From: Selaginella moellendorffii
Lineage: Eukaryota > Plantae > Lycopodiophyta
Direction of reading: 5' to 3'
Assembly: GCF_000143415.4 (NCBI RefSeq)
Contig: NW_003314384.1
Span: 384,816-448,815 of the forward strand
Length of the DNA: 64,000 bases
Shown piece by piece: positions 6,705-63,960 of the stretch; position 1 is the stretch's first letter, and every line of letters begins with the position of its first letter. The notes under the pieces are model-generated. The model was not told where the DNA came from. It was given only the letters and a program-made list of their open reading frames with translations, and made no database searches. A program made the position numbers and the translations under genes.

Positions 6705-8114
6705 TCAAGCACTTCCCTTGTGTCCCTCTAGGTATTGTTCACTTTTTTCCTCATGGAAAGAATTCGACCAACATATTAAACAAACTTCAAATGACTTCCT
6801 TCCAAACCACAATGCACAATCACTCCCAATGCCAAGAGCTGTTTGTGCACTAAGATTTCTTCCTGGTTCATAAACTGTCAAGTTATTCTTCACCCGTGTG
6901 AGCCGGTCTTTGGAGAGAAATGGATTTCCATTTAGCTGAGAAACGATGGTTGACTTGCAGATTTTCTTCCTGTCAACCAAAACTGTTGCTTCCACTTTTA
7001 ATGACTCAGAATCTTCAATATGATGCAGAACAGCATCAAAAGTATGCCTCAGTTCACTTGCTGCTTCAGTAGCTTCTTCAGTAGCTTCTTCTCCTACTAT
7101 ATGTTCCTCTTCAAACTAATCGACTATATCATCCTCTCTGGAATTTTCTGAAACCTTGTGAAAATCCTCAAAATCTTCAGGTTTATCCCACCAATCTCTT
7201 CCAGATATGCCAAGGCCATGAAGAAGTTCTTGTGCTTTGGCTTTACCCTGAATCAGCTCATTAACTATCAGAGCATCTGTCTCTACCGAACTGTAATCCC
7301 CTAAGTCCGCTACTACTCTCTTCCCATCATGCTCTATCTTTTCCCAAATATTTTCCTGTTTCCTGTGAGCTTTAGAGAAAAGCAATGTACCTGCTGCCTT
7401 GCATTCTGCTAGCATGTTCATATTAGTCACACTATGAACAACATCAGCTCCGTCATAACACCATTCATTCCCGATCATTCCTCCTATTTTGGAGAAAAAG
7501 TTCTTGCAAATGTCAGAACCAGTTCTATTAATTGGGACTGGCAAATGTGAATGGTGATCCCAAAAATATCTATCTCAAAAGCAAAATTAACAAAAGAAAA
7601 TTATATATGAAACATACCTGATTAGAAGGATGACAAAGTGATATGATAATTGAATGTCCAAGAAGGTTTCCTTGCTGATGAAGTTGTGTTCCAAGTTCCA
7701 CTTGCTTTCCTTCAGAATCCACAACCTCCATAAACAAAAGAAGAAGGACACCATTGATGCAGCTCTCACTCGCTCTCCAAGGCTCAAGTACGGGTGCAAA
7801 AAGATATCAATATATGATGCCACCACAGCAAGATAAGTTTCGGTCCCCAGCGTACGTGAAGGTTTTCTATATGTTGTTTCTCGCATAATTGAAAGACAAA
7901 CTTGCACTGGCCTGCTACAAAGTCGCTGAGCAGCACCCCAGTTTTGTTTATCAGAGTGCCTGACATCCCCAAGTGGCAGTCTGTGTTTACCATGAAACTT
8001 TTCAAAAACTTCCCAAATGTCATTCAAATGCACAAACTCATCCCCTAGAAACAGTTGTCTTATTGCACTATGCAATGGACTTCTTCCCATTATGCACATG
8101 TATCAAAAGGTTCC
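6705..8114 (-). pseudogene. 3' half of a P-element/THAP9-like transposase, truncated at 8114 by a LINE fragment
   Basis: Motifs GDVRHSDKQNWGAAQRLC and TGSDICKNFFSKIGG (D.xE.xFS-like, E changed to K); near-identical to 25843-27252. Confidence 0.65.
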
Positions 8115-17522: not shown

Positions 17523-20078
17523 CCATATCCTTGATCACTACACCAAAGAATTGCCCCTCTTCCTTTCCACAATCTAGGATTTTGGGATAACATTTTGGAA
17601 CACTGTGGCCCTATGCAAGCCTCATGGGTACTCTCCCCACTTTCTACCTTTGGGTGTTCTAGCCATAGAGCTAGAGCAAGGTTCTATTGAGCCATGCCAA
17701 ATTGGCTTTTCTTTATTGAGAGTCAATGACTATTGAAAAATGAATGTCCTTATATTCCAAACCATCACCATACCCTAGTGAGTTGGGACTTGAACCCAAA
17801 CACTAAAAAGTTAGGACTTGAACCCAACCTCCGCATATGCATCTATGGGCGGCATCACCTAGGATTCCTAGCATGACTCCTAACATCAATGCACCAACTT
17901 ATACCCAAAGCAAGTTACAAATCACAATTTAGGAACTTAGTTCCTCCAAACTGTCAAGTCCTCTCACTTGATAAGTCTGTGATCATGCATAGACTCCTCT
18001 ATACTTGGCCCTATAGGCCACCCTTTTTGAAGTTAGCACCTTTAACTAGGGTCATTGTTCCCTTGACTTGCCAATCTCACTTAGTAAGTCATTTGACTAG
18101 CATAACATGGTTTTATATATAAGCATGAAACTTCTCAACCATTGACTTTCGTTCAAAGCTATCTTTTTTAACATTGATCCTTTAGGACTATTCCTTGATT
18201 CCAATGTCGTTTGCTAATTGTAATTATATTTTGTAGTTTAACATTTTTATTGGATGAAACTGGAAAGAATGCAAACTTAACATGAGCTGGAGTTGGTTTA
18301 TCTGGATCTTTTATAAAATAGATATTAATTACATTAATACATTGACGTGTGGAACAATTGCTAGACAAAGTGACTTTTGTCAATACACCAGTGTGAAATG
18401 GTTGCACATATTCTAAGCATCTTTCCAACTAACACCATAATTGTTTGATACAAGTGATACAAAATGATGCTATGTCACAATTAATGTTTTTTATGGGAAG
18501 GGGAGGTTCTAGCTTAGGATAGTATAATATGTGGAAGTAAATAAAACTTATAATATAAAATATATTTATAATTTTTGTTTATTGTTTCCACATAAATGTG
18601 AAGCTTGGGCTTTTTTTCACAAAGAAAAAAATCATAAGACACTCATTTAAGTATTTAAATTTAAATTTTTAATATTAAAATTATTTTTTTTAAATTTTTT
18701 TTACAATGATGCAACTTAAAAAAATTTATGTTTGTGCTTGCAAACACAATAACATATGAGTGAATTGTTTTTAAAGATTTGCTCAAATTTAGATCTGAAA
18801 TTTTTAAATATGATTATATTTACTTACAGAATGCTAAAATAAGGGAGCTAATTGATTAGAATTTAGAACATATGAGACAAAAAAATAAATGTAAATTAAT
18901 TTTTCAACTACATAAATAAGTTTTCATATATATTTCTTTCATCATGAAAGGCATACACAAAAAAAAACCTTTAAAAAAAACTATAAACCTTCGCAAATGT
19001 AACTATTAAATTGTTAAAAACTCATTTGTTATATCAATTTTAAGAATTTTTAGCATTGAAACTTTTTTTAAAAATTCAAATAAACTAATGTGTTTTATGT
19101 TCACAAGATTATGAAAATATTTATAGGCCGTAAATTTTGAGCATATAATTACTAGGAAATGCAAACTAAGCACTTAGGTTTTAAGTGCTACATGAAAAAC
19201 ATAATATTATGTTTTGTAGCACAAAAACAAAAATCATAATATAATTTCACTATTAGGAACCTAACAAATTCTAAAAATATTTTAAAAGATTCTAGAAGGT
19301 TCTAAAAGTTTCGTGGATTATTCTAAAATATTCTTAAAAGCTAGATTCTAAAGAAATATTCCTAGAATATTTCTAATAAAAGTTAGAAGAAAATATTCCT
19401 AAAAGAATGCAACATGGGGATTAGAAACAAGCAGCATGCGCACCAGCTAGTTTGAAGTATGATTGCGTTATTGCAACAAGTATCATGATCAATCCATCTA
19501 GGTTGTTTGAGTGTGCTTCCCATACCTGGAAATCTCTGCAATTCCACCCAAAACGCTTCCAATACAGGCTTCTGAGCTCCCCCGTTCGCTTAGACTTGTT
19601 CATTTTTGCATGTCTGTAGACATGTTGGTTCTTGTTTGTTGCGGCAACTAAAAACTTTCCAATTTCCAAGACACATTTGTACAAATCCAATTCTTCCAAC
19701 ATCCTAACCAGTCCGAAGGCAGCACCTTGGTGGAATCTTCATGCGGCTTTATTCCTCCCCACCATATACTCAAAATCATCCTCATTGAATTCCATGGTGT
19801 AGCAATGTCACTAGCTGAAACCTTATGTGCCTGCGCATTTCAAATTCGCCCAAAGCGAAATCCATGTAAGTCAGCCTATATTGAAGTTGAGTTAGTATTG
19901 CTCCTTGTGGATAACACTCTGATGAAGCTCATTTTAAGTTTAACAAAGCTTCACAATTGCATCTTTTTATTGAAATCAAGTACAAGCGCACCACACAATT
20001 ATTCCCATGATCAATCATCCTTGTCAAGTTAGACCAGCAAGACAAGGCATGATTATACATACGACTGCTATATATATA

Positions 20079-21893
20079 TCATGTAGGACATGAACAAGCG
20101 TTGACGCTCATGTTGACATCACCACCAGCTGCAGCAACAATACTTGTTGGAGCATCCGCAACAGCTTCAGCCTGGTTCCACATGACCACCCAGCCGCCTC
20201 TGCAATCCTTGTCATCGTCGTAACCTTTGCATGAACATGATGCCGAGTCATATTTGCAGCTGTTGTTCACACCATCCCAGGTGCCTCCCTGTGAGGTGGT
20301 ACGAGTTGTAGCCCGACCATTGGAATCCAGCACAATACAAGAATCTCCGTAGCAGTAGCAAGTGAAGCCAATTCCTCCAACATGACAGTCGTCGTCGTTC
20401 TTGCACCCCTCACAAGCCCTGTGGCACTCAAAGTGCTTCGAGTCCCCAGAAATGTCCTTGACAGCTACAAACTGCTGCAGGATCACACTACCGCGCGGAG
20501 TGCTCTTGGTCAGGCACTGGAATCCCCAGTAGCCCTGGTAGTAAGCCTGTAAGTTCCTGCCCACTTGCCACTGGCTACTCCCAACAGGGAAACGCCTGAG
20601 CACAACTTCCCATATGGGAGTGAACTTGTACTGCACAGCCAAGCTGCTGGTTGCTCCCTCCTCCATGAACGTGAACATCAGTTCCTTGCTCCGGTCCTGA
20701 GTGAGTTTTGCTCGAGTCTCGGGAGTACCACCTTTCACAAACAGCTTGTTGTGCATTTCCAAGTTCGCCGACTCCCGCTTGCTCTCCTGGCTTACACCCG
20801 CACAGCCTTCCACCCCGGACTGAAGCCCCTCCAGCTTTAGGCACGCCTGGGCCTTGAACTGCTGCTGCGAGTAGGATTTGGAAGACTTGGCGCTGCTCCA
20901 TTGCTGCAGCAAGGAGCCCGTGTAGATGGTCGAGATGTAGTGCGAGCCCCACTTTGACAAAAACTGTTGGAAAGGTGTCCAGCTGCTGCTTACTCCTGGC
21001 TCAGCCACCTCCACAGGCAACGTCTGCAGCTCCTCGAAAAACTTGGGATTCAGAGGCAGGTGGTCCACCTTGTTGCTGTTAAGGGTCTTCATCTTGGAAA
21101 TAGAGACCGCGTCCAAGGACAGTGCTGAGATCTCTTGCTCCCCGGCACTGATTGAGTTGAAGGTGCTCTGTAGTGTTGCAGAAACTGCTTGATAGTTCCC
21201 AGAGATGCTGGCTTCCGCACCAAGCTGCACCCCCCAATTGCAAATTGTCATTAATGACATACACTGTCACATCTCAGCAAAGACTTCTTGTTGAGTTTTG
21301 CAACATACGTACCGACATGTAGAACCTCTCTGTGCTCTCATAGAAGCTCGTCTGGTAGTCAACTTTGTTCACATCCAAGATGATCACTGCATCTTCATTC
21401 AGGTTGGAAAAGATGTTGAGACCGCCAGCTTGGGTTTCCAGAATGTTGGCTCTGGGGAGGTAGACCCCGGTCCCCAGAGAACCCTCTGTTCAAAATGTTC
21501 AAAATGCAAGTTGGTCAACTACAGTGCTACCTACCAATTCAGGCTTACCTTGCTCTCCAAGCAGTTGGAGTAGCTCCCCAGCCGAAAGCACCAGCCCGCC
21601 TTGCTGAGGAACGGTGGTAGCCTTGGACAGGGAAACACTCATGTCTGTCTTGTTAACCGTCGACCACTCCAGGCCTCTGTTGTCCAGAGCATCCAGCAGC
21701 ACATTGTTTGGCTGCACCAGCACCAGGAGGCCTCCCTTGGGAATGGGAGTTTCCGCACTTTTGCTGCTGGCGAAGAACGCCAATATGCAAAAGAGAAAGA
21801 ACAGTGCTGCTAGCTCGTGATACCTGGAAAACTGGTTAGTGGCAACACAATGGCACTGGAGAGAGTGCATAGCTACCTTTTAAGAAATGCCAT
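20079..21893 (-). CDS. Second, apparently identical copy of the secreted MACPF gene
   Basis: Same exons and identical ORF translations at offset 16869. Confidence 0.85.
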
Positions 21894-23361
21894 GGTTGAG
21901 ATTGAACTTGATGAATTTGCTGAATATGCTGAATACATGAATGCCTTGTGTCCATCATCCAATTTATACTGCCTCTGCTACGGTTCAAACCCCACTGTAC
22001 CTTTTTCTAAAATCACTGTACCCTTTTCGCCTTGGGTCATGGCAAGCATGCTTCTAATTTTCAAGCTTGATTTAATCACGTGCCTGAACATACGGAGGCA
22101 TCCATCCCTCGTGTTGATCAGGCTAAATGCGCTGGTGTTAGTTTTGTAAGTGAATCCCCAAGCCACATAAAGAATATGGAAGCAACTGTAGCCTTCTCAC
22201 CTGTGTCCATTAATCGTTGAAGCTATTTGATATAGTCGAGTAGTTGTACTTGCACCAAGAACTAATGGACGCCCGTAGTCCTGGAAACGTATTATTTTTA
22301 CAGATCTCACTGCTTGTCCTTCAACACAAAAGTGGAACAAAGTCAGAATCACTAACAGACTAAAACAAAAGGGCGTATAAACCTTATTTCAGGTACCTGG
22401 ATTGGCATGCAAAAGACTCTTAACACACGCACAACTTGAGCTCCCGCTTCCAAACTACGCTAGTCGGTCTGTCATTGCCTCTCACTGTGCAGTGTCCTGT
22501 CCAGAATGATCCCCCGATTCTCAGGACCGTTTCCAGCGGAAGCTGGAATGTCAGATATAATCAGGACACTTTATCTGTCTGCTAACCTCGCAGAGAATCT
22601 CAGCAGCATTAATTTGCGCCAGTGGATCATCTGCCTTTCGAAGTTCCTTTTCTAAGACAGAGAAAATGCCGGGACTGCGTACTTTCTCAGCAGCTAGTTG
22701 TGGTGCAGATGCAGAGTCATTTGCTACATACTTGAGGAGAGGTTCCTGGGATAGAAATTCAAGACATACTAGTTCAACGGGTGACTTAGCCAAAATGCAC
22801 CAGCTGCTTGCGCCACAGTAGAGTCCCTGGCAAAGCGAAACTATTGAGCTCGATTTGTTAATTAGAATATGTATGTACTCATTAGATAAAGTGCCTCACT
22901 AAAGGATGAACAATGCCAAAAGCTGCTTAGGCAATGCAGTTTCGGCAGAGCTTGGATTGCCATTTTAATGTCAAGGAATTTGGCTATCTGTATGAGTAGA
23001 CACAGAAAAATCAGCTAATGAACCCACTAGAAAAAGAGAAAAGCTGTCTCACTGAGTTGCACTTGCACGTAAGCTTTCGTCTCGGGGTGGTCACTCTTTA
23101 TAAGCATTATATATCATCTGCATTCTGGAAGTTTAGAATAGGGCCTAGTATACTTTTCTTGTTGTTCATAATTTGCCCCATACATATATGCATTTTTTCA
23201 AATCTTAAATAAACCCCCAATTCTTATATATATGTGGAATATTCTGGTTATTTTTGTATAAAGCATATATATATTTCCATTAATATAAAAAAATTATTTC
23301 ACCCTTCTATGACAATTGATATTCTTGCTTTTATCTTTGATGAAATTATCAAAAACTTCCC

Positions 23362-46200: not shown

Positions 46201-46655
46201 CCTTCTCATCTGGTCATTTGGCGTCTCCAAGCCCTTCTCTTCTTCTGGATCCATCCTTAACTCTTGTGCATGATGACCTATTGGTATCTCCACAACCGTG
46301 GCTGCCCTCATCGCTGCTGCCGCTGCCCTAGTGGTGACGCCCTGTTCTTACTTGGATTAGGGCATGTCCTGCCTTTGGTTTTTCCAAAGTCCGTCTTCCC
46401 CATGTTGAGAGCCACTCTAAGTCCCATGCACTTAGTGATGGGGGTGAGGAAGTTCAAGTCCAAAGTGCTGCTTGTGGAAACCTCTTCACGTGGTCCGTCA
46501 CCACTGGCTAGATTACCTGAGCCTAGGAATCCACTTGCTTTCTGTACTTCCCTGTTAAGTGCATAGCTTTGCTGTAGAAGGCATCCATGCTGCGTGGGTG
46601 GTGAGGCTGGTTGAGACATCCCTGGCCCAGGTCCTTGTGCCCTTGAAGGCTCCTA
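40285..46655 (-). mobile_element. Degenerate L1-clade LINE, 3' portion (ORF1 with DUF4283-like region, APE endonuclease, RT, zf-RVT); 5' portion at 59014-59915
   Basis: APE motifs NVYAP, VGDFN, LDRIY, SDH (~44130-44530); RT motifs LDFEKAYDRV, RQGCPL, FVDDT (42443-43171); CxxC...HxxxxC (40796-41044); ORF1 FETEE...HPW...VPLNV (44566-44925). Confidence 0.9.
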
Positions 46656-47117
46656 AGCTCTATTTCGTTAAAGTGGGAATTGTCATTATCCCACTTGTAA
46701 AATAAGGTTTCCAAACCTTTATATAGTATATAAATATAACAAAATTCAACTGCATTGAGGCACATGCCATTTTATTTTAAACAAGGAAATGTCTACTCAA
46801 TCACTTCTCCTCCCCCTGCCACTGCTTCACCTCTCTCTTCTCCTTGTCATCGTCGTCCAATTTCTTTCCATCTTTTTAATATTGGCTCAGTTGCTCCGAG
46901 TCTAGGTGGAGCCCAAGTCCCCATTCAATCTTTACTTTCTCCTTATTAATAAAACAACTTCATAGACTTCCAATAACATGCTATAACACTTCTAGTATAA
47001 TGAAAATCCTCTCAAAGAATTGTCTTTTAATATTAAAACAATGGCATGGAACCCCATGCCATAATAAGTTACATTTTTAAATAAATACATGCCATCTCAG
47101 ACTGTTATTTTTTGCCT

Positions 47118-50100
47118 CTAACGCCTATACAATAATCTTGGAATTTCATCACTCTCCACACTATCAGGATTTAAACCCAATAGTAATGCCATCTCTTCTC
47201 TAATACGTCCACGCTCATGTTCAGTGGTCGAAGAACCCATCCGGTTGAGCAGATTATGGAGATGCGGATAGTGCTTGGCTAGACAATATATATGCCATAA
47301 ATGATGACTGGTGTCTGTCCGATCAAATGGCTTCTGATATACCGTTCCATCTGCCATTTGGTTGATTTCTGCAACCACCTCCTGGACTGGCCGGTTCTCT
47401 ATCACCATCGCTCCAAGCCGTTTTGCAAGGTCCCCCAGAATATACGGTTTCTTCTCCCTAGTTTCCATACTGCAAGAGATGGGGTGCACTGCATATGTGT
47501 GCGTGTTCGCTGCAGTTTTAATCGGCGAGTCATCGATGATGAGGATTTCACTTGACCTAGCAGTCCGGTTCATCACTACAGCCTCTGGCTTGACGAAGAT
47601 GGGCTTGCTACCCCTCACATGGACCATAGTCAAGCAATCCTCCTGCGTTAGGAGAAAGTCAAATGGTAATATTACTCGCGTCTGATCATGCATCATCTGT
47701 AGCAACGTTAATGCATTATGGCGCATCATGGATGTCCAAACTCCCAATTGCAAATTGAACCTGGCCCTCTGTTTTAAGTGTCGCATGGTCATTATTAGAT
47801 CTCGCAGTTTCTCCCGTGTGATTAATGTGAATCTGTCTCTTTTGACCAACTTGCGACCGCAGGCTTTGGAGGGTGCAGTGACATTCGAGGACGAGCCACG
47901 CTCATGGGAGAAAAGGACATCATTCAGATCAAAAACGATACAGTACCTTCGCCGTGACTCTGAAATGAAATGTGTCAGCATAAAAAATGGCACAAGTCAA
48001 TTTTACCATCTACAATATTAGCGAATGGTGCTCCCGATGGTCGTTGAGAGGGTTTTAGTCAAGGAAACGTGAAGGGCGGAAATACTCTCCTCTGCAATGT
48101 GGGGTCAATCGCATCCGATGGCGTGTGGGCACATGCCATTTCAGCTGTAGACTCTAGTACAACTGGCTCAACAGTGGCATGGGGTGGTTCCAATGGCATG
48201 TGATCACACGCCATTTCAGCTGGTGCCTCCGTTGGCAAAGTGGACATGACCGAACAGGCAGCAGGGGCGGTGTAGGGAGGTTCCAACGGCGCGTAGTCAG
48301 ATGATTGGGCACACGTTGAGTCTGTTGGAAATGAGGATACGACCGGCTCGGCGGCTGGGGCAGCCTCATGCGGGTCCAATGGCACCTGGTCACCGTCAGT
48401 TGGATACGTGGACAAGATTGACTCAGTGGTATGGGCAGCATCAAGTGGAGCGTGGTCAGCTTGCTTGGCGTTGATATGGATAGTAGCCTCCACCAGCTCT
48501 GATGACTCTTGCAGGCAAGTAGAGTCCACTGGCGGATCCATATGCATGTCTAAATATCTCCCTTCGATTGAGATGGTATCCTCCCGTGCTACTAAAAACA
48601 AACTCATTAGCACATTGAATCGACTATATTGTATTTACCATCAACTGCTATTGAGGAACTAGGACCGATATCACTTGGGCACACTGCTGATTCTGAAGGA
48701 TTGGACATACGTTTCGACCCTTGCTTGGCACTATCCTTCCTCGACACTAAAGGCTAGAGTTTGTAAATTCAACTGAATAATCTCTACTTACCATTTGCTC
48801 TGCGACCTACATGGACAATGTTAGAAATGGTAAAAGGTTAGGAATGGATGTACTATTATTTACCTGATGGTTTGTCTTGTATGACCTTCCTCTGCTGCTC
48901 TTTGGCCACCTCAGGCTGGCCATCGTCGTCATCATCGTCGTCATCGTTATTATGATCGTCACCATTGTGAGGACCATCCAAGTCCTCTTCATCCTCCTCT
49001 TCTTCGTCCTCCTCTTCTTTGTCCTCCTCTTCGTCCTTCTGCTCTTCCTGCTCATTATCTTTCTCTGGCTCCTCATCCCCCTCCTGCATTTCTTCCATAG
49101 GCTGCTCAGGCTGGATGGCTTGTTCTTCCAGGACCATCTTGGGAAAATCATCTGGCCGAGTCTCCATCTCAAAATACAAGACATCCATAGCCTATTTTAG
49201 TGCGTGACCTAGGACCGTATCCTCACCCGACTGTCTTAACATGGTTTCTGCACGTTCTTGCACCCTTCGAAGACGACGAGATGAGAAAAACGTGGCCTTG
49301 ACTTGAAAAGCATCCCTCATCCATTGTACCTCTCCATTGAGATTGGGGAAGGGGAGTCCGCCATAGGAATCTGAGTCAGGAGGTGGTGACTGGCTGCTTT
49401 CACTCAGCCCTTGATCTGCAATGAATGGCATGAGCACACACGCCATAACCGCGAGGCATTACCTATCATCTTTTCGTTGCCCTTCTTCCTTTTTGAATCA
49501 AACGCCTCTGATCCCGACGACAGTCCAACGTGCTTTCGCTTTTTATAACCACTGTCAGTTTGAGCTTGGCTGGTGCTTGCCTGTTTTGCCTTTGAAGAAG
49601 TGTCTCCTGCAAGGAATGGCATGAGACCACACGCCATTGCAAATATAATTTATACCTCCTTTTTTCCTATTGCTTGTCTGTTTGTCCTTCTTCAACGCGC
49701 CACCAGTGCGCTTTTCAGTCCTCGTGTCTGAATATTCACAACGATCTATAATCAAAATGGCGTGAGGCCTCACGTGACCTTACCTTGTGTAGGTTGTGAG
49801 TTCGACCCAACATGGGTATCTTCAACAGTAGCTGTTAACGCCGTTTTAGCAGCTGGGGGTGGCCACGCTCCTGCATACAGAGCTTGTGAGATAACATTTA
49901 AACTTAAAGTGCGTACTCACCAGGTTCGCAGAGAAGATACTGTTTTTCTTTGGCAACTGTAATTATATGCTCCATTGAAGTCACCTCTTCAATGGAGTTT
50001 GTCACCGCAACACACGGGACACCCTTGAGTAGTGCGGCTCGAAAGAATAGTCCGCCGCAGTTGTACTCGACAACGCATTTGCCCTTGGAATCAGAAGCAG

Positions 50101-52477
50101 GTGACCCACCCGCTATTGCGTTGAAGACCTAGCTGAGCATTTCCCATGCTGCACTTGGAGCTTTCTTTGGATTCGAAAGCTCCATAGCCGTCTTCAGTTC
50201 CTCAGGCACGGGTAAATTGACCTCCCTCAGATCAATTCAATCGGCCTTGTCGAACGAAGCTGGGAAGTCACTCCAGTCCCACTCTGCTGCAGGACCAATA
50301 ACAAGGGCGAGTGTGAAGATGCGGACATTCGTTGGTATCTTCTTCTTAGCCATTATCCCATGGATCTCCCGCATCTCCTTGCCTTTCAACTGAGCCTTCA
50401 CCTCGTTCAAGGCCTTCCAGAACTTGTGATAGGATTCGAAGTCGTAGATCATATAGTGGACTGAAGATTCCACCTCCGCAAGTCCCACCATTAAGTCAAT
50501 GATGGAGCTGACTTCGTCTGCATGAGTGATCTCCTCGTTTGTGAAGTCCATCACACAAAAGATGTTCTTAACCTGCTCATCTCCGCGGGAAACGATGCTC
50601 CTCCACCTTTGATCCTCATCCGAATTCACGTATACCCGGTAAGGTTCTCGATAGGCCTCTGCTGCGGGGTTGAGCTGTTTCTGAAGCCGGCGGTCAACAT
50701 CCCTCTTAATGAAATTTGGATACTAATCCAACTTCTCAGCTTTACTTTTCGTGGCATCCCGCAGCAGATCGATGAACTTGGGGGCCCCCTTCACGTACTC
50801 GTCGATGTCTTCATTTGACAACTCCAGCGCTTCCATCATCTCTTGCGTGGTGTCGATGCTCACCCTCTCCACAGCCACTTGCTCGAAGATCCAATCCTTC
50901 AATAGCGCACGAGCTCTCAGAGTCGTGCACAAGTCGTCGTATGTCACAATATGGCCGGGAGTCATTTTGGTCTTGTTGAAGACTACCTCACCACGTAGAA
51001 GAGCATTAGCCACTGTCAGAAGGTCGTCATCGTCTAGAGACCACGAGAAATGCAAGGCGTTGAGCTTCAAATCATTGGGCTTCCGGCCGTCCTCCACACC
51101 CATTGAGTTTAGCAACTCCCCGTCATGGTACCTCCTCAACACATCTACCCATTTGTCAAAAACAACTTTTGTCGCGAGTAGAATGTTATGGATGCTGAGT
51201 GTGTCATTGACCCCCAGTGTTTTCGAGAGAAGACTCGAGAATTCCTGCAATGGAAATGGCGTGAGGCCACATGCTATGCCACATGCAACGAGGCTTACCT
51301 GCCAGGCGCTAGTTGCTAGTGCACGTCCTTGTCCTGGTTTTTGTGGCTTCTTCAGTTGAACCCAGAGCTTCCGTGTTCGTGCCAATGTCTCGTGCAGACC
51401 CGATTTGTAGCACGTTTCTTGCTTGACATTCTACGTGTGGGAGATGTATATGATAGATCGGAGGGGCGAGTTGCCTTTTATCAGGCAGACAACTCTTGTC
51501 TTGAAGACTTTCTTCACCTCCTCGCCCACCATAATATCCACAACTATCTCTTGCATCGCCAAGCTAGAATGCTGCCCGGAGACGACATAGAACCGGATGT
51601 TCTGATCGTCCAACACCTTCCTATTAATCAAGTCTGGAAACCTCGTCTCGCCCTTCATTGTTCGGTAGTAGGGGATCACATCTGTGATGTCGGGTGTTAC
51701 TGGACTTGCCAGCATCTTCTGCTTCAGTTTCTCCACCCACTCATCAGATACTAGCCTGTGGTTGTATTTGCTTTGGATGTCGATACGGCTCACGTCGATT
51801 GTATATACTTTGTTGGAATAGTAACAAGTACTATTATCTGCGATGATTTTTGCTGCCTCTTCTTGCTCTTTCTGCTCTTTGCAGCTCTTCTTTTTGGTGG
51901 GTGTAGTGTTCGAACCCGAGGCAATGGCATCACCGAGTAGCTTCTTTTTTGGAGCAGGAGAGTCGGACGTCGGCTTGAGCTTGACCACCCTTTTCTGCTT
52001 CGGGGTAGTTTCCAGATCGACCCCCTTCCCCTTCGCTTCGTGAACTGGAGGCACTCTCAACGGCTCAATGTTGGAATATAGTTTTTGATCATCGCCGTAG
52101 GTGAGGTCCGTGGATTCCATGTGATCTTCATAGACCCGCAGCGTCTTTGAAATTGTGGGCCTCCTGGACAACCTCTCCCTAGCTCCCTCTAGGAATTCCT
52201 CATAGCCGCTGCCCCCCTCCGGGAAGCCGCTAGGATGTGCAAGGTGGATCTTGAAGGCGGACGCTGTCTCTACCACAAGTGCCAGTCCATATTCTTGCAT
52301 GGAACTGCATGGAGTGTCTGTCACTTGGATGAGGATCCCCATGCATTCTTTTCTCCCACCATTTGTGTTGTACAGCCTCAGATCCTCGCCTTCCATCCCG
52401 AAAGTCCAACTGGTGAGCTCCTCCCCCTTCTCTACATCCACATTGACAATGGCTGGAAGAAGAACGCAATTCCTCGC
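47118..52477 (-). pseudogene. Spliced ~1640-codon gene: ParB-like domain, degenerate beta-class DNA amino-MTase-like region, acidic/low-complexity linker, FCP1/NIF HAD phosphatase; 6 in-frame stops; first exon(s) not resolved
   Basis: Exons 52477-51299, 51244-49921, 49870-49784, 49745-49656, 49606-49463, 49415-48864, 48806-48792, 48746-48639, 48591-48007, 47959-47118 join via GT-AG introns with consistent phase; motifs NHRLVSDEWVEKL...FYVVSGQHS, KCVVEYNCGG...AALLKG, IVFDLNDVL...VWTS...LIIDDSPIK. Confidence 0.72.
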
Positions 52478-53689
52478 CTGTTCAGAAATGCACAACAATT
52501 AGAGCTGACAGATGAAAAGCTAGCAGCTGGAAATAACGTGAGGCCACACGCCATTCACCACTACATCAGATGTCTTGAGGCTGCATCCTAAGATGGCGTG
52601 AGGCTACATGCCATCTGTAACCGGACTGCACTCGAGAGCCCAATCGGTGCATGCCAATGTTGCTACTGAATGGCATGTGGCCTCATGCCATTTTCTACTT
52701 GGCCTAAAAGACTTACCATTTGAAGCCGAATGGAGGCATGACAATCGAGGCCGGACTCGCTAGCGAATGTGCACTGTGTGTGCAGCGGATCTTAGCAGCA
52801 AGGCTACTCTGCCACTTACAGTTGGAGAGTGGCTCTGAAATCTCCTGGGACGCCAAGTGGGCTGCGTGTGGGTGGCGGAGTGGGCGGCGGAGTTGGCGGC
52901 GAAGTTACAAACTGGGTGTGTCTTGAAGTGGACGCCGATGCACACGAGCGCGATGTGGACAAACGAAAGCTAGCTATAAACATGACGGGATGCAAATAGA
53001 TTACTAGGCTGGTCCTGCGAAAATAAAAAACCATAATTGAAAACATTGAAAATGCAAAAAGAAAGGTTTATAATATTTTTGAATTTTAAGCAACCAAAGG
53101 AATGTAAGTAGGGCATGTGTTTGTAAGTTTAAAAATGCCTCAACCACTTAAATTCCCAAGTAAATAAAGCTGTTTCTATTTTTGGTACAGGTAAACTTTA
53201 TAGCGTGTGGGCTCATGCAATTTTGAACCCAAAAATGCACCAAAAATGCTCGACTAGCATTATTCTTTGAATGGCGTGTGGCCTTATATTGCCATAAATG
53301 GACGTACACACACAGCATAATTATTCCTTTACACGGCGAATAATCTTGGCATGGATTGCTGACACGGCATGGCAAAGTTCGAATCACTGACATGGCACAA
53401 CTGGATCGAGGCAAGGACATGATGTGACAAAGTTCAACCTCCGATAGCAAAGTCTAGAAGCTACTCAGTTTGAAATTTGTCAGAGGAATCATAAGATCTG
53501 GTTTGTCAGAGGATTTGATGTGACATTCAAGCATGTGTTATTTTTGAATTCTCGAACTCATTCCTAGGTCTATCATTTTTGTGCGCCGTGTTCTTGGTTC
53601 CGCTGAGCGCAGTGAGTGCTGCTTGTGTAAGCGGCGTTGTGAGCTGTGGTTTATGTGTCTACAAGCGGTTGCGGTATTGTGAGCACCAT

Positions 53690-53795
53690 TGCGAGCGGCA
53701 GTTTATGCGAGTGGCAGTTTGTGCGAGCGGCGCTATGAGCAGTTGCGGTGTTGCGAGCGGCGCTACGAGTAGTTGCGGTGTTGCGAGCGGCACTG
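53690..53795 (+). repeat. Short tandem repeats (TGCGAGCGGC core, ~30-bp period)
   Basis: Repeated TTGCGGTGTTGCGAGCGGCGCTA units. Confidence 0.8.
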
Positions 53796-53984
53796 TCTTT
53801 GGTGTGGCTACCGCTTCCTCTTGATATTCGGCACTTGTGCTTCCTGGTATGTTCACCATGGAATGGCTTAGGACCACATTTAGAAATGGCATGAGGCCAC
53901 ATGCCATCTTGGGCCCTTGCAATTTCATGGCTAGCGTATTGTCATGTATGTTTTTACTTGCCTGCAGCTGTGTGTATATCAAGA

Positions 53985-54174
53985 TGGCATGAGGCCTCAT
54001 GCCATCTTTGGCCCCTGCTAGCCTATTGCCATATTCCTTTTGCCTTGTTGCAACTGTATATATTTTTGTATGGGTGACTAGTCACGCACACAAAAATATA
54101 TACAGTTGCAGCAAGGCAAAAGGAATATAGCAACAGGCTAGTAGGGGCCAAAGATAGCGTGAGGCCTCATGCCA
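53985..54174. repeat. 190-bp near-perfect spacerless inverted repeat (hairpin/cruciform)
   Basis: Arms are symmetric about GTGACT|AGTCAC (54074-54085); each arm ends in a 22-bp palindrome copy. Confidence 0.92.
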
Positions 54175-54327
54175 ATTTTGTGAATGCGAAATTTCACGTA
54201 GGTGTCAATAGCATGTTTGAATAATGGCATGTGGCCTCATGCTATTGAGGTTGTTTGGTATGTTATGATTTAGGCCATTCTCCAATCATTTTTTGTATGG
54301 TCTTAACTTCTTTTCTGCACTTTCAGA

Positions 54328-57300
54328 ATGGCCTTCAGGGTTGGGGAAAAGGTTTACATTTTGAATGGTGGGAAGAGAGTTGCAAAAGGGACCCTTGTGT
54401 CTATGGATCGGAACTTTGTTATACACTGTCAAAGGCTTGGGGAAGGCAATGTTGCTGTATCAGTAGAGACTGTCTTCGATGGGAATGTAGTCGCTATTGA
54501 ACGAGGAGAGATGGTCGTCGGGGTAAATGTTATTGTTGCCTTGAAAAATCTTCAGAAGAAAGCAGATGTTGGGGACAGCGCAAGTGCGACACATGTTCCC
54601 TCCATAGATCTTAAGAACCGTGCTACATGGATTCAGGCAAAGGTGTTTCTAAACAACCCCGAGGAAGAGGTGGTAGCTGAGGGCTTAGCCACAGTTGTCG
54701 ATCCAAGAGATGCGGTTGCTAATCAAGAATTGGGCTGGGATGATATTGGAGTTGCGATTTTAGAGGTTGTTGATACAGAAGAAAACAGTCTGACTATTGG
54801 AAGCATTGTGCGGTGGAAATTGAGGCACTTAGTGTTTGAGAATGTGAAGGATTCACAATCAAACACCATTACAACTGATGACAGAACATCTCTTCATGGG
54901 AAAAGAATGTACACCTTCCTAAAGCGCAGCCAAAGGGATCTAAGCAACGAACCGAAAAGGCAAAAAATGGCGATGGAGGTTCATATGGTCTCGACAGTTG
55001 CTTGTTGCAAGAGGAGGTGCTATCAACATGCTGATTGGGATGCTATTGAAGAGGAGAGAGCAAGATACAAGACATTGTCCTGGAAGGCAGCTCGCAATTT
55101 TGTGTATGAGGCATTACGGTCATCTATTGATGCTTCAGAACATCAGATGGGGGGCATGGTCTTCCAGAGGGGTTTGGTCTGCATGAAGGCATGGAGAATC
55201 ATTTATGGAGTCCCTCGAACCACATTCTACAGAATCAAAACTGAGTTCGAGGAACAAAGGGTTCAACAGGCAGTCCATGGGAATGACGGTACGCACAAAA
55301 CCAGGGGTCATGTTGTATATGGAGAGGCAATCTTCAAGAGGTTTGTCGAGACATGTAGCGAGCAGCAACCACATAAAACCCGCCTCTTGGAAGATGGAAC
55401 ATGAGACACCCAACGAGTTCTCCCTTCCATGTATACCAAAGGGGCCATATTGGAAGATGTGAATCGGGAACTCCAGAGTAATGGCTACAGGAAGCTGAGC
55501 CAATCTAGATTTAGTAGATTGTGGAGCAACAGGTTCAGGGATGTGAGTATAAGAAAGTACTCCAGCTTTTCAAAGTGTGACAAGTGCATTGCTATCAAAA
55601 TGGCTTTGTCGAAGAATTCTTGCAGAGCTCAAGAGCGAGAGACATTGGTTAGAAGGCGGCTTGACCACAACATCGAGCAGAGAAGCTGCAGGACTGCATA
55701 TTATCATAACAGGATTCTCTCCATGGAGAGACCTGACTCTTACCTCTGCATCATCCACGACAAAATGGACCAGAAAAAGACGTGCTTACCTCGACTCAAT
55801 CCTGCCCCCAAGGCAATCTCTTCATCCATGCAGCTGCCTGTATCTCTGTTTGGCATAATCGCTCATGGGCATGGTGCCCAGAACTATGGGAACCTCTTTG
55901 TACCTCTATGGGGTGGAGGGGGTGCAAACATGATGATTGCGTCCCTAGCAAAACACTTAAGGTCTCTGCAAAGTGTGCAGACTGAGCTGAACAGCCAACC
56001 CTTGCATAAGGCCCTTGTCGATCGAACCCCATACAGGGTTCAGCTGGAGGAGGAGCAAAGGCTTGCAGTATCGCGTGGGGCCCCATGCCATCCCAGTGAA
56101 TATGTTGGCCGTCAGATTGTAGGGTTATCACGTGAGGCCTTATGCCATTCCGACGAGGCTGGTTGCCCGGTGAATGCACAGCCTCATCCAAACGAAACAG
56201 AATCTCAAGGAAGTTCTTGCGGCCAATGTGGCCTTCCACCCCATCTTCTGCTCCAAACAGACAATGCTGGCAGTGAGAATAAAAACATGTACGTCTTCAC
56301 GTACTTGGCGATGCTTGTTGCCAAAGGCATATTTGAAATGGTTACACTTGGCTTTCTCATGGTTAGGCACACTCATGAAGACGTTGATGCCATGTTCAGT
56401 CACTTGGTAGAGTCCCTCCGGCGATCCAATGTCCTCACCCTCCCACAACTCTACGATGAATTCCAAAATTGCATCAAAGGCACTGTTGAAGTTGCACTTG
56501 TGACAGAGGTTCCAGACTTTAAGGGGTTTGTAAGAGGCTACATTAGGGACGGATCCGAATCGCTGATTGGCCACTCCAAGCCTCTTCAGTTTCATTTCAG
56601 CATGCGTGACGGTGCTCCAGTGATGAGGTACAAGATGAGAGAATGGGACACAGTGTGGCTGCCAGTAGACGGCATTGAACTCTTCAAGAGAAATCCCATA
56701 ACTGGGGAACCTATGATTCCTCAGGGTTCCCCACGGCCGATGCACCCGAATGGACTCAAAGACCAGGAAAGTATAGTGGCCAGGATTAGACAGCATATTG
56801 CCTTCTGGAAGAGGGGGTTGGTGTTTGGTGGAGAATCCTATTTTAAGAGGTGCAAGCCTTTGCTCGAATACTAGGAGAAGATTATATCTGCTATCCAAAA
56901 TGGGCTGGTTGTATATGAAGAATTGGAAGAGTCCTTTTGGCCAGAACCCAGAGCACCAGATAGTAGCAGAACAATGTCCTCTGGAAATGCAGTGACAGAT
57001 AACGATGTTGAGGATCACTATTGTGGGCCGAGGAACAAGAAGCCGGATTCAGTATTCAATCTAGTACAGGTCTGCAAAGGAATGGTCATGCTTGTCAGAC
57101 CCAGTAATAAAAAACAAATGATATGGGTGGGGCACTGCATCACTGATGCAGAGGAGGACGCGGAAACTAACTCCTTCAATGTAACTGTGGAGTGGTTCAA
57201 GCCAAGTTCTGGATATACGAAGGATTGCCTAGAAAAGAGATGGGTGCTGAATCCAAGGGATCCCAGCATGAGCATATCGGTGGATAATGTTGTGCATGGT

Positions 57301-57396
57301 TGGATGCGGAAGCAGAGTGCCACCATCACCTTGCCAGACCATGCAAGAGATGCAGCAAGAGCATTCATAACCCGGGTTCAAGGTGAGATTCATTAA
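54328..57396 (+). pseudogene. DDD/E transposase, ~1020 codons with two in-frame stops (55402-55404, 56872-56874)
   Basis: Three ORFs in one frame; CDKC cysteine cluster; IIHDKMDQKK, LLQTDNAGSENKN, FLMVRHTHEDVDAMFS catalytic-type motifs; two N-terminal Tnp1/En-Spm-like (VAxG...LG...V.V) repeats. Confidence 0.85.
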
Positions 57397-59013
57397 TATT
57401 CCTTTCTAATGTATTTTATTTCAAGGTGAACAATCCGAATCTGAATCAGAGGAGGTGTGATGGCATGTGGCCTTACGCCATACCTAGGTGAGATGATACA
57501 AATAACAAGTATAAATTCTTAGTTGTTCTAGCAAATCTTACTTAAAGTTTAAGGTGAACAAGCCGAATATGAATTCATCGGATTGTTATAATTGCGAGGT
57601 GATGGCATGAGGCGATACGCCATTTGAGAGTGGTAGCCATTCCTATATGAGGTGAGTGAAATATTTATTAGAAATACCTCATTCAATTGTGCACTTCTAA
57701 GTCTTGGTCCACTCAGTATTGTTTGCATGTTTCTATTTTAATTCTTTCTCTAAAATGTTATTTAGCATGTGGCTTCATGCCATTGCTCTCCACAATCATG
57801 CATTGAATTTTTCTATCCTTGCATAATACTTCTCCATATATATAGCATGTGCGCACATGTGATATGGTTCATTAGGCCTGATATAGTGTGTGAGGTAAAA
57901 CAAAGATGATGTGACATATGCATTTACCAATCACATGTGCATAAATCTAATAATATGGTGTGTGGCCCATATTAATGGCACATAAACCCATATTGTGGGC
58001 TTACGTGCTTTATGTACCATCATTCCCTTGCAGCGTGTGTGTTGGTTTCCTTTTATAACACAACGAACTCCATATTTTAGGGTGAAGAGCGTTCTCATGG
58101 CAAGCACAAAATCTGTAAGTGAGGCAGAAAAGGAGACGGAGAAGGAGATAGGTGAAGATGTAGAATATATAAGTCTTCCAAACTCCCCGTACTATACTCC
58201 AGGTGATCATTTTTCTGAACAAACAGCAACATTAACAATTATCGAGAACGCCCCAGTAACGTCAAAGACAACAATCCAAAGCAAAACAACTGACCTAGAG
58301 AAGGATGATAGTACCGCTGAGAGTACCAAAAAGGAGGTGTCCACTAGCGCTTAGGCTTATAATGGCATGTGCCCTCATGCCATTTACTTGATCACCAAAT
58401 ACCTTTTTCCCTTTGCACTAGTATATCTTAATACCGGTCTGAGAAATAGAATGGCATGTGCCCTCAGGCTTTTTACTAAATCACCTTTGAAAGAAATGCA
58501 AGCCTCTATGTCATAAAAAAAAGGTACTAGAGAAATTCCTTAATAATATGAATGTTATTTAGTTTCATGAAAATACACTAAGGGTCAAATGAGTTAAATG
58601 ACTTCTCCAGACTAGCAATGCCTCTTGCTACACCTTCACAATTAGATTCGTTAGAAAAAGATAACATTGAATAATATCTAAATGTTCTCACCATTAAGTT
58701 ATATGTCTGGCTAATAGGAATGACGTTCATCTTGGAAAGCTCACCACACTCTCAATGAACAAACAAATAGTGTGTGCGCGCATGCCATCACTCTTCTTTA
58801 GCTTCAGATTCGGCTTGTTCACCTTGACAATGAGATTTATTATACAACCAGATGGACTCAATCTGGACACAAAGTCACCGCGCTAGTCACCATGCCCCAG
58901 ATATGTCTAGCCCCTGGACAAAAAACATATAATTTCACGTCATTTTCAAATACTTGAAAATTTGTACCTAGTCCCATTTTACTGAATAAATCCCACTTTA
59001 ACGAAATAGAGCT

Positions 59014-59915
59014 TTCCTGCTCTTCTGCTCCATCATTGCTCCTGCATAGCTCTTCTTCTAGTGACTTGTGCATTGCCACTCCTGCGTTTCTAGGCAGGAT
59101 CACCTCGTCCCGTGTCTCATCTTCTTCCTGTTGGTTCCCAAGATGTCCTGAACCGGGCTCAAGGACTATATTTGGTGTTGGTGACTCCTCTTTGGCCAAG
59201 CTACTTCTGTGTGCACCACCATCCTGTTTCGGTGAGACTAGCTTTTCCAGCTTATCCTTTGGTGTGTCTGCCAGTTCTTTGAGAAGTTGACAAGTGTGAT
59301 GAGCCCTGATCATCATCTCCCTGGTTCCCTGCATGACCTCTTTGTGAGGATCCATGGCTGCGCACTCTGCAAGGTAGTCGCTTTTTGTGTGGTGTGATTT
59401 CTGCCTCAAGCCTGCTTGATCGCTGACAGTGTGCTCATTGCTTCCTGCCGTGCCACTCGAACCTAGCTTTTCACTGTCCCCTGGAGAGCCCAATGATGCC
59501 CTCCTTCCAGTGCTTGGGGTTTTGCTGTTGGTGGCTCTTCCCTTCAGCATCCCTCCCTGGGGCAGTTGGATGTTGAGGCCGCGGCCTCTAGTGCCTCTTC
59601 CAAGTGCAAATGGCTGAAGCTTGGTTCTTCCTCCACTGCTGCTGGGTGCTGGACGACATTCCATCCTGGACACAGTAGTATAAAACAAAAAATAGAGAGA
59701 TTTTGGAGTGATTCTTTCCTGAATCTCATGGCAGATGCCCCCACCGTCAGTAGCAAGTGTGGGGAGATTGGGCACTCTCCCCTTGCGCTCTCCCTCCTCT
59801 GGCCATGCCTCCGATCACGGCAGCCATGGTGCTGGACGCTGTGCTCCTCCATGCCCTAACACACCAATCATTAGCCAATCATTGCTCCTCCACACCCTAA
59901 CCGTCCCTTGGGTTG
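59014..59915 (-). mobile_element. 5' UTR and ORF1 N-terminus of the LINE interrupted by the DNA transposon
   Basis: ORF MECRPAPSSSGG... runs up to the right TIR; low-complexity ORF1-like sequence resumes beyond the left TIR. Confidence 0.65.
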
Positions 59916-62442: not shown

Positions 62443-63960
62443 TCAAGCTCCTGGTCCATCTTCCACAGCCGTATACATCAAGGAGGCATTGGGCCCGTCA
62501 CTCCGAGATAGTACACCTTTCAACTGGCTGACATAAAATACCGGATGAATTTTCACCCCAACTGGCAGCCGCACTCGATAAGCCGCTTTACCAATGCGCT
62601 CCAGCACTTCATATGGACCAGCATATCGATGGGAAAGTTTATCACTCTTCCCTGTCCGTAAAGGCACCAAGGTGTTCTGCCGCTCACTTGACGGAAAGAT
62701 CACTCTCACAAAGACGAGATCACCCACCTTATATTCCCGGAATTGGCGATGCTCATTGGCAAACTTCTCCGCTCTATCCTGAGCTGCTTGCAAATTCCAT
62801 TTGCACACCACCAGAATCTCATCAAGTTCTGTGGCCAGATCAGTTGCCTCGGAATCAAGCTTATCTTGAACGTCCTTACTCAAATGCAATCCCAACTCCA
62901 CTGCTGTTCGAGGATGCCTTCCAAACATGGCAAAGTAAGGACTTAGCTTGGTTCCACTGTGTTGGCTATTGTTGTAAGCAAATTGCACCAACGGAAGATA
63001 TAAATCCCACTGTCCTTGCCTTTGACCAATGCTACAACGTAGCATATCCTCCACCACCTGATTCACACGCTCAGTTTGCCCATCCGTCTGAGGATGATCT
63101 CCACTCGAGAGTTTCAAAGTCACTTGCATAGCCTTTGCAAAGCTTTTCCAAAATCCACTAGTGAACTTTGAATCTCGATCACTAATGATGTCCTCCGGCA
63201 AACCAAAATTAGGAAAAACCTTCTCCAAGTAAACCGCAGCCAAGTCTGAGGCAGTGACAGTCTTCCGAAGAGCCAACAACCGCACATACTTCGTCAACCG
63301 ATCCACTATGACCCATACTTGCTCCTTTTGCCTCTGTGTTCGTGGCAAACAAGTGATGAAGTCCATAGAGATACTACACCAACGGCTCTGAGGAATAGGT
63401 AAAGGTTGCAAAAGTCCCCCCGGCTTCTCCCGTGGCACCTTAACCCGCTGACAAAGCTCGCATGATTTACAATACTTGAGGATATCAGCCTTCATATTCC
63501 TCCAATAAAAGTTGCGCCTAATCAACTCATACGTCTTCTTCCCCCCAAAATGACCGGCCTCTGGACGATCATGATAGTGGAATAAAACTTGAGTAATTAA
63601 CGCATCCACCCGTGGCAAATAGACACGGCCATTGTAGTAGAGAATCCCATCCACCAATGAGAAAGGAGCTTCCATCTGGTCTCGCAAAGAGGCCACCTCA
63701 GCATCCTGAGCCTGAGCATGCTCAACCAACTGCCCAAACTCGCTGACCACCTTACTCAAATGATGACAAAATCGTGTTCGTAACGTCGTCACATGACGAA
63801 CACGAGATAAAGCATCCGCCACCACATTTGATTTTCCCGGACGATGCTCAATAGGAACTCCCCAAACTCCATGAGTTTGACCATCCAACGAGCTTGCCTA
63901 GTGTTCAACTCCTTCTTGTGTGAAAAGATACACAAGTGGTTTGTGATCTGTCAACACCAC
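62443..63960 (-). CDS. pol: Ty3/Gypsy pol C-terminus (end of RNase H, integrase), frameshifted near 63870
   Basis: TDHKPL, PGKSNVVADALSR, HD...GH...CELCQ zinc finger, ISMDF, SDRD, TDGQTERVN, GPY motifs. Confidence 0.93.

What the first reader, a model, noticed from the sequence alone, without database searches (positions are those of the whole stretch)
46751..58788. Dispersed 22-bp palindrome ATGGCRTGWGGCCWCAYGCCAT confined to the transposon
Copies start at about 47041, 48118, 48193, 49425, 49616, 49757, 51256, 52533, 52593, 52670, 53200, 53271, 53886, 53984 (perfect ATGGCATGAGGCCTCATGCCAT), 54154, 54224, 56070, 56127, 57460, 57602, 57762, 57842, 57955, 58362, 58451 and 58767, with weaker ones near 46751 and 47087. 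Length is kept at 22 bp while the flanks are unrelated, as expected for a dimeric protein binding site. The GCGTG/GCATG and CACGC/CATGC variation suggests an ancestral form with two symmetric CpGs, so binding could be methylation-sensitive (inference). The copies are spread internally rather than subterminally, unlike typical transposase-binding motifs.
Basis: seen in the sequence. Interest (0 to 1): 0.88.

Follow-up and report, generated by a model that had tools for sequence, protein, structure and literature searches.

The report
Plant transposon studded with own palindrome
A damaged copy of a 12-kb cut-and-paste transposon, likely from a seedless land plant, carries 24 copies of one 22-letter palindrome, mostly in its non-coding parts, and these are likely landing sites for a predicted ParB-like protein that the element itself encodes, a design already proposed for algal transposons.

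Summary
The palindrome is real: 24 strong copies lie inside a 12,360-bp element (46655-59014; 24-bp perfect terminal inverted repeats, 4-bp target duplication TCCT) and none in the other 51.6 kb. Twenty of 24 sit in the non-coding third. The two halves vary independently, which fits a dimeric protein site and not a hairpin. The element is Sola-like. It has a DUF7869 DDD transposase and, on the opposite strand, a decayed intron-rich gene with ParB-like, helical, methyltransferase-like (no catalytic motif) and NIF-phosphatase-like parts; homologues occur in a lycophyte, a liverwort and a fern. Related elements carry their own, different palindromes. Best reading: the ParB-like protein binds these sites to recognise and regulate its own element, like VANC. 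Binding and function are untested, and the ParB call rests on weak but concordant evidence. The Sola1 + ParB/methyltransferase architecture is published for Ectocarpus, and ParB plus inverted repeats for red-algal Plavaka elements. This is a new land-plant variant of a known kind.

The parts
46651..46654 (.). Left copy of 4-bp target site duplication (TCCT)
   Evidence: right copy at 59015-59018
46655..46681 (+). Left terminal inverted repeat (24 bp perfect, 27 bp at 96%), terminus AAGCT
   Evidence: a contig of run X5 runs on into unrelated DNA at 46657
46749..46770 (.). Half site of the palindrome (10.2 bits)
47041..47062 (.). Palindrome copy downstream of the NIF-like exon
   Evidence: 24.2 bits
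47118..47996 (-). NIF/HAD phosphatase-like frame, likely the last exon of the accessory gene; first motif reads DLNDV
   Evidence: Pfam NIF E 2.9e-6; fused to the same protein in fern homologue P0056
48061..48590 (-). Acidic, proline-rich linker exon (predicted) holding two in-frame palindrome copies, 48118 and 48193
48792..52477 (-). Accessory gene core: 7 predicted exons joined by six 47-57-nt GT-AG introns give one 1124-codon frame with 5 stops (4 TAG, 1 TGA)
   Evidence: no RNA confirmation
49921..50700 (-). Methyltransferase-like alpha/beta part, without a catalytic motif IV
   Evidence: motif columns; secondary structure; weak Rossmann/MTase matches Z 3.4-4.9; inconclusive
50790..50855 (-). 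Helix-turn-helix-like stretch (residues 327-346 of P0002), judged by eye
51299..51829 (-). ParB-like domain (motif VVSGQHS)
   Evidence: PHROG 1033 E 0.009; G-[QL]-H in 6 of 6 aligned rows; Foldseek ranks 2, 3, 19 are Spo0J/ParB proteins, E 0.007-0.16
49425..49446 (.). Palindrome in predicted intron 49462-49416
49616..49637 (.). Palindrome in predicted intron 49655-49607
49757..49778 (.). Palindrome in predicted intron 49783-49728
51256..51277 (.). Palindrome in predicted in-frame intron 51298-51245
   Evidence: homologues have a gap here
52533..52691 (.). Three palindromes (52533, 52593, 52670) in predicted intron 52716-52478
53200..54245 (.). Five palindromes (53200, 53886, 53984, 54154, 54224) and a half site (53271) between the two divergent genes
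53985..54174 (.). 190-bp hairpin (95-nt arms, 92%) with a palindrome at each end; other family copies have a shorter centre or lack it
54328..57396 (+). DUF7869 transposase, 1022 codons with 2 stops; invariant acidic residues D478, D645, D685/D687
56070..56148 (.). Two in-frame palindromes (56070, 56127) in the variable-length insert of the transposase core
   Evidence: insert 53-110 aa in the 8 of 22 rows the pattern could measure
57460..58788 (.). Seven palindromes in the 3' region (57460, 57602, 57762, 57842, 58362, 58451, 58767)
58988..59014 (-). Right terminal inverted repeat
   Evidence: X5 contigs run on into unrelated DNA at 59012 and 59015
59015..59018 (.). Right copy of target site duplication (TCCT)

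Best explanation
The 22-bp palindromes are the internal, family-specific signature of a Sola-like transposon and are likely the binding sites of a dimer of the element's own predicted ParB-like accessory protein, which would let the family recognise and regulate its own copies, probably against host silencing. Shown: the sites, their confinement, their non-coding bias, the independent variation of the halves, the element's ends and two genes. Inferred: each 11-bp half is read by one subunit. The fixed letters are C5, T7 and their mirror images. Position 6/17 accepts T or C at a pyrimidine-G step; methyl-C mimics T there (recalled), so binding would tolerate CG methylation. The methyltransferase-like and phosphatase-like parts lack their usual catalytic motifs and would act as binding or decoy modules. 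Odds: binder is the accessory protein about 0.6; purpose is anti-silencing or self-activation, given that, about 0.6.
For: 24 sites inside, 0 outside. 20 of 24 in the non-coding 3,984 of 12,360 bp, binomial p 3.6e-7 on my own gene model, sites not fully independent; the 4 coding copies sit in a low-complexity linker and in the variable transposase insert. Halves vary independently: position 6 same in both halves 10 of 24 (12.4 expected), position 9 same 9 of 24 (9.8 expected); pair 9/14 is a mismatch in 14 of 24. Relatives have their own palindromes: L001 9 copies, L010 10, L043 4, L022 4, L007 31, L036 9, shuffles 0-1. Complete relative L007 (11.3 kb, target duplication ATAT) has 31 inside and 0 in 9.7 kb outside and carries NIF-like frames on the opposite strand. 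ParB-like call: noted by eye before the scans (note); then PHROG 1033 E 0.009, G-[QL]-H kept in all 6 aligned rows, one reading IVDGQH, Spo0J/ParB at Foldseek ranks 2, 3, 19. Precedents: Sola1-1_Ec32 (PMC12477816), Plavaka PAG3 with inverted-repeat arrays (10.1101/2025.02.11.637652), VANC21 motifs in introns and intergenic DNA (PMC5735166).
Against: No binding, expression or methylation data. ParB support is weak piece by piece: no Pfam or NCBIfam ParB hit, no PDB sequence hit, model pLDDT about 40 over that domain, no Foldseek PDB match at E 0.001. A profile of the accessory family found a ParB-side remnant in only 1 of 80 related loci (L033, E 0.004-0.06), although 29 of the 82 loci then held (80 relatives, 2 phage loci) have 3 or more copies of the L007-type palindrome; most of these loci are decayed or short. 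This copy's differences from the family majority are mostly CG and CHG transitions (13 and 5 of 23), so it was methylated despite its sites. The transposase also has predicted DNA-binding regions and is common to all palindrome-bearing relatives.
Confidence: 0.55

Rival explanations
1. The transposase itself binds the palindromes, as internal enhancer or autoregulatory sites, and the accessory gene is unrelated cargo.
For: Every palindrome-bearing relative was found through its transposase, while the ParB part was seen in only 1 of 80 loci. In several relatives the copies cluster on both sides of the transposase gene.
Against: Only 2 of 24 sites are within 500 bp of an end. The terminal repeats do not contain the motif. 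Seven sites lie in five introns of the accessory gene.
Confidence: 0.22
2. A host transcription factor reads the site and the family has accumulated it to be expressed, for example in the germ line.
For: Five sites lie between the two divergent genes. The core G-W-GGCC-W-C recurs in the L007-type motif.
Against: 0 sites in 51.6 kb of other DNA in this window. The outer arms and length differ from family to family. The window motif with up to 4 mismatches is absent from all 82 loci held.
Confidence: 0.1
3. The copies act as RNA or DNA hairpins (splicing aid, small-RNA source, cruciform), or are by-products of local inversion and duplication without function.
For: Three copies end 7-10 nt before a predicted 3' splice site. 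A 190-bp hairpin and a few duplicated flanks show that duplication does spread the motif.
Against: No compensatory variation between halves. Most sites fold weakly as DNA, -0.7 to -9.4 kcal/mol. No Rfam family reaches its gathering score. 274 of 276 pairs share little flank. C5 and T7 are nearly fixed.
Confidence: 0.08

Closest known systems
Sola1-1_Ec32 of Ectocarpus (PMC12477816; passages and supplement rows read; figure not seen)
   Same: Large Sola-type element, AA...TT termini, 4-bp target duplication, second gene on the strand opposite the transposase with ParB-like and N4C/N6A methyltransferase domains, proposed to bind and modify its own element.
   Different: Here a likely land-plant host, 12.4 kb against 21.5 kb, 24-27-bp against 282-bp terminal repeats, no catalytic motif IV, an added NIF-like domain. 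The word 'palindrom' does not occur in that paper's main text, so no site is described there. Sequence similarity to its protein could not be tested.
Plavaka accessory genes PAG2/PAG3 of Bostrychia (bioRxiv 10.1101/2025.02.11.637652; passages read; supplements not seen)
   Same: ParB-like accessory protein on a giant DNA transposon, with inverted repeats proposed as its binding sites.
   Different: EnSpm/Plavaka transposase; ParB is fused to a 2OG oxygenase and the methylase is a separate gene; repeats are in tandem arrays beside PAG3, whereas here they are single copies spread through introns, promoter region and 3' region.
VANDAL/VANC anti-silencing system of Arabidopsis (PMC5735166; passages read)
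   Same: Family-specific motif accumulated in introns and intergenic parts of a transposon and read by an element-encoded protein.
   Different: Mutator-like element; 8-9-bp non-palindromic motifs in tandem repeats; binding and demethylation are shown there and untested here.
Bacterial ParB-parS, KorB-operator, Noc-NBS (recalled, no call)
   Same: Dispersed palindromic sites with two half-sites; ParB-like domain followed by a helical region.
   Different: The arginine of the CTP-binding motif is replaced by S or T in all 6 aligned rows; no partner ATPase gene was seen; eukaryotic spliced gene.

Membership tests
Sola superfamily (Sola1-like) | 4-bp target site duplication (PMC10741241) | tested here: met
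   TCCT on both sides; relatives L007 ATAT/ATAT and L071 TCAT/TCAT, while L042, L068 and L076 did not match exactly
Sola superfamily (Sola1-like) | Terminal inverted repeats of 11-1124 bp; 2-9 kb, some over 15 kb | tested here: met
   24-27-bp repeats, 12,360 bp, AA...TT termini, as in Sola1-1_Ec32
Sola superfamily (Sola1-like) | DDD transposase | tested here: met
   D478, D645, D685 and D687 invariant in 22 of 22 rows; which of the last two is catalytic was not tested
Sola superfamily (Sola1-like) | Sequence similarity to curated Sola1 transposases | not testable with these tools
   No Repbase library; the founding paper is not held. Pfam calls the domain DUF7869; that DUF7869 equals Sola1 is my inference
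ParB/Srx family | ParB-type N-terminal fold | tested here: inconclusive
   PHROG 1033 E 0.009; Foldseek viral ranks 2, 3, 19; low model confidence; no Pfam, NCBIfam or PDB hit
ParB/Srx family | Arginine-bearing CTP-binding motif (GxxR, recalled) | tested here: not met
   Rows read GQHS, GQHT or GLHS
ParB/Srx family | Helix-turn-helix after the N-terminal domain | tested here: inconclusive
   Two short helices at 328-348 with pLDDT 70-80 and a conserved hydrophobic pattern; no family or fold match
ParB/Srx family | Binds and spreads from a palindromic site | not testable with these tools
   Needs a binding assay
N4C/N6A DNA methyltransferases, beta class | Catalytic motif IV of the (D/S/N)PP(Y/F) type (recalled) | tested here: not met
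   Only an aspartate is kept at that column; no row has PP(Y/F)
N4C/N6A DNA methyltransferases, beta class | Rossmann fold with SAM-binding motif I late in the chain | tested here: inconclusive
   EYNCGG / EYGCGG / DINTGG in 6 of 11 rows; residues 581-636 match Rossmann and methyltransferase units at Z 3.4-4.9 only; no family hit
NIF/FCP1-like HAD phosphatases | Pfam NIF domain above cut-off | tested here: met
   27.5 bits against cut-off 21.8
NIF/FCP1-like HAD phosphatases | DxDx(T/V) catalytic motif (recalled) | tested here: not met
   Window reads DLNDV; P0056 DLNGL; L007 DSKGV, L030 DFYGF
VANDAL/VANC | Motif accumulated in non-coding parts of the element | tested here: met
   20 of 24
VANDAL/VANC | Motifs embedded in tandem repeats | tested here: not met
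   None of 8 tandem-repeat rows holds a site; relatives L007 and L010 do have tandem arrays
VANDAL/VANC | Mutator-like transposase | tested here: not met
   DUF7869, no MULE domain
VANDAL/VANC | Sequence-specific demethylation by the accessory protein | not testable with these tools
   No methylation data
Independent MITE whose ends are the palindromes | Target duplications and shared flanks around copies | tested here: not met

The most novel reading that the evidence does not exclude
Sola elements of seedless land plants run a co-evolving site-and-reader code. Each family carries its own 16-30-bp palindrome and a ParB-derived protein with dead methylase and phosphatase modules; the protein loads at intronic sites even when they are CG-methylated, spreads along the element like a bacterial ParB clamp, and reactivates only its own family.
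Probability: 0.2. Interest if true: 0.8.

Novelty: new variant of a known kind. Interest (0 to 1): 0.52.

Why it matters
Two recent algal genome papers propose that ParB-like transposon accessory proteins bind their own element, but neither defines a site or tests binding. Here a young, abundant family gives a sharp 22-bp site, a candidate reader, and relatives with different sites, so the idea can be tested directly with gel shifts and cross-family swaps. If it holds, it is a second, independently derived VANC-like self-recognition system in land plants, built from bacterial parts, and a possible source of sequence-specific chromatin-targeting tools.

Tried and rejected
No whole genome is held, so genome-wide enrichment was not tested; handles for related loci are not held either. 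Word-based protein searches found no relative of the accessory protein; the index-free search found 9 hits, of which I dropped 2 as spurious (P0051, RTX repeats; P0053, a repeat protein). A single-sequence fold was useless (pLDDT 32). The 16-row fold reached 49.9; Foldseek PDB gave nothing at E 0.001 and VIA-align nothing at Z 5; ParB is not listed there, which excludes nothing. tblastn of the accessory protein against phages and plasmids gave only chance hits (two checked). The exact pattern is absent from viral contigs. No RNA holder is listed on record; laid contigs show no joint matching a predicted intron, so splicing is unconfirmed. The ESM Atlas gave no result for this element's proteins or for P0006, so that line is open. 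Pfam scans of 46 of the 84 long frames listed beside the transposase in relatives found nothing relevant. The repeat 'palindromes' in the left part of the window are tandem coding-like repeats, not this motif. Literature searches for ParB with Sola, plant or Marchantia terms and for DUF7869 (0 papers) found no description of this site or of a land-plant version; subscription journals and Repbase Reports are not covered. No complex was predicted, because the claim is protein-DNA.
Full report
Observation. A matrix from these finds 24 sites at 12 bits or more, all inside 46655-59014, and none in the other 51,640 bp. Of the 28 listed positions 24 are full sites, two are half sites (53271, 46749) and two are not sites (57955, 47087). 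Flanks are mostly unrelated (median 12 of 40 letters over 276 pairs), no tandem array holds a site, and 2 of 24 lie within 500 bp of an end.

The element. Inverted repeats at 46655-46681 and 58988-59014 are flanked by TCCT on both sides. Contigs of four runs cover the element evenly, and contigs of run X5 leave both ends into unrelated DNA, so it is a multi-copy family; depth there is no copy number. In 52500-54300 run X1 differs from this copy at 26 places in 1,801 bp. I classified 23 of the 32 listed rows, dropping 9 that were minority, run-specific or beside an indel: 13 are CG transitions, 5 CHG, 2 CHH, 3 other. This fits a young, methylated, now dead copy in a plant. The plus-strand gene (54328-57396) is a DUF7869 transposase with 2 stops and invariant aspartates in 22 of 22 aligned rows. 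A 4-bp duplication, short terminal repeats and a DDD enzyme match Sola as described in PMC10741241 (passage). AA...TT termini match Sola1-1_Ec32 (supplement row). I could not compare with curated Sola1 proteins.

The second gene. On the minus strand, six GT-AG introns of 47-57 nt join seven exons (52477-48792) into one 1124-codon frame with 5 stops; the other frames have 56 and 62. No RNA confirms this. I noted a ParB-like motif by eye (note) before the scans. PHROG 1033, a ParB-like partition protein family, was then the only hit for that stretch (E 0.009); Pfam and NCBIfam gave no ParB hit. The index-free search gave 9 hits, 7 kept; named ones are from Selaginella, Calypogeia and Adiantum. 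A profile built without the window's protein finds the window's gene at E 2e-58. G-[QL]-H is kept in all 6 rows covering the ParB-like part, one reading IVDGQH, but the arginine of the bacterial CTP motif (recalled) is S or T. The 16-row model is weak (mean pLDDT 49.9, about 40 over this domain). Against viral structures, ranks 2, 3 and 19 are Spo0J/ParB proteins (E 0.007, 0.008, 0.16), rank 1 is unnamed; PDB searches were uninformative. The later part has alternating strands and helices and a glycine-rich loop late in the chain, like a beta-class methyltransferase, but no row has the catalytic PP(Y/F) motif. A NIF-like frame follows at 47996-47118 and is fused to the same protein in the fern homologue; its first motif is also atypical. 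So: ParB-like is probable, methylase-like is plausible and probably inactive, NIF-like is shown as a domain.

Where the sites lie. Seven are in five predicted introns of this gene, five between the divergent genes, seven in the 3' region, one after the NIF frame, two in a low-complexity linker exon and two in the variable insert of the transposase. That is 20 of 24 in the non-coding 32% (p 3.6e-7; my gene model, exon edges corrected by one base without changing any class; sites are not fully independent).

How the site varies. The halves vary independently (position 6: same in 10 of 24, 12.4 expected; position 9: 9 of 24, 9.8 expected), and pair 9/14 is mismatched in 14 of 24. This is what two half-sites read by a dimer would show, and not what a stem would show. 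Positions 5-6 read CA 30, CG 16, TG 1, CC 1 of 48 half-sites. Among the 8 strong sites in 52500-54300, 10 of 11 TG/CA-form positions show no majority difference and 1 (52609) is CpG in the family (contigs drop rare variants). C5 is constrained and position 6 is tolerant. Since methyl-C mimics T at such steps (recalled), methylation-tolerant binding is the better guess. Sites hold 2 CHG among 285 cytosines against 895 of 5,394 elsewhere, which is a property of one consensus and not independent evidence.

Relatives. Eighty loci with 26-40% identical transposases were fetched (best 80 of 497). Several carry their own dispersed or arrayed palindromes of 16-30 bp. L007 is a complete 11.3-kb element with a 4-bp duplication, 31 copies inside and none in 9.7 kb outside (L008 and L009 are the same locus), and it has NIF-like frames on the opposite strand, as does L030. 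Its motif shares the GGCC-centred 8-bp core with the window's but has other arms. Against my reading, a ParB-side remnant was seen in only 1 of 80 loci (L033, weak), so these loci cannot separate the accessory protein from the transposase as binder.

Mechanism. Most likely the accessory protein binds the palindromes as a dimer and so marks members of its own family, with an effect on their expression or chromatin, as VANC does. The binder is inferred (about 0.6), the purpose more so. The transposase is the main rival binder.

Comparison with what is known. PMC12477816 (passages, supplement rows) describes a 21.5-kb Ectocarpus Sola1 element with an opposite-strand ParB-like plus N4C/N6A methyltransferase gene and proposes self-binding, without describing a site in the main text. 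bioRxiv 10.1101/2025.02.11.637652 (passages; supplements not seen, and they may show the repeats) reports ParB-like PAG3 beside tandem inverted repeats in red-algal Plavaka elements. PMC5735166 (passages) shows VANC21 binding a 9-bp motif in introns and intergenic DNA. PMC4738411 (passages) notes ParB-HTH-fused methylases in algae and fungi. PMC5751038 and bioRxiv 10.1101/2021.09.26.461848 (passages) added nothing decisive. Earlier AI notes of this scan report the same design in other genomes; they are leads, not support, but they suggest the pattern is recurrent.

Verdict. Real feature, well-defined site, plausible encoded reader, known kind of system. What is added is the land-plant version, the single-copy dispersal through introns, family-specific sites across the clade, and the apparently dead enzyme modules. 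New variant of a known kind; interest 0.52.

Noticed in passing
window 53985-54174: The 190-bp hairpin between two palindromes is polymorphic in the family: some contigs have a short palindromic centre of about 16 bp, others skip 180 bp and leave one site. It may show how new sites arise by foldback.
   Followed up: partly
window 1-6492 and 16870-23361: A 6.5-kb direct duplication at 99.98% identity, each copy with a 395-codon MACPF-domain frame (3210-4397, 20079-21266); further 99.8% duplications at 6509-8114/25647-27252 and 8717-10904/23462-25649. A very recent tandem duplication or an assembly artefact; the window also holds 100 N.
   Followed up: no
window 10.7-12.4, 15.2-17.7, 29.3-31.3, 35.1-36.8 kb: Four or more copies (76-91% identity) of a 1.7-kb repeat with an internal array of 11-12-bp units, some copies inverted; not classified.
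   Followed up: no
window 57420-57660: Two duplicated units, each between splice-like signals and each holding a palindrome, follow the transposase frame; an inverted copy lies at 58781-58827. They may be small 3' exons of the transposase transcript. A 122-codon acidic frame lies at 57986-58354.
   Followed up: no
window 54376-54490: The transposase N-terminus has a weak match to Transposase_23 (E 0.02, below cut-off), also seen in P0006 and P0024: a possible duplicated reader-like domain.
   Followed up: no
window 62443-63897: Ty3/gypsy-type integrase frame; the element's flanks are decayed retroelement-like DNA.
   Followed up: no
L007 2500-5230: Three tandem NIF-like frames on the minus strand, with a tandem array of the family palindrome directly upstream (5870-7040). 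L068 shares the same left flank but lacks this internal part.
   Followed up: partly
L022 8729-9390: A longer, 26-32-bp palindrome in 4 copies upstream of a related transposase.
   Followed up: partly
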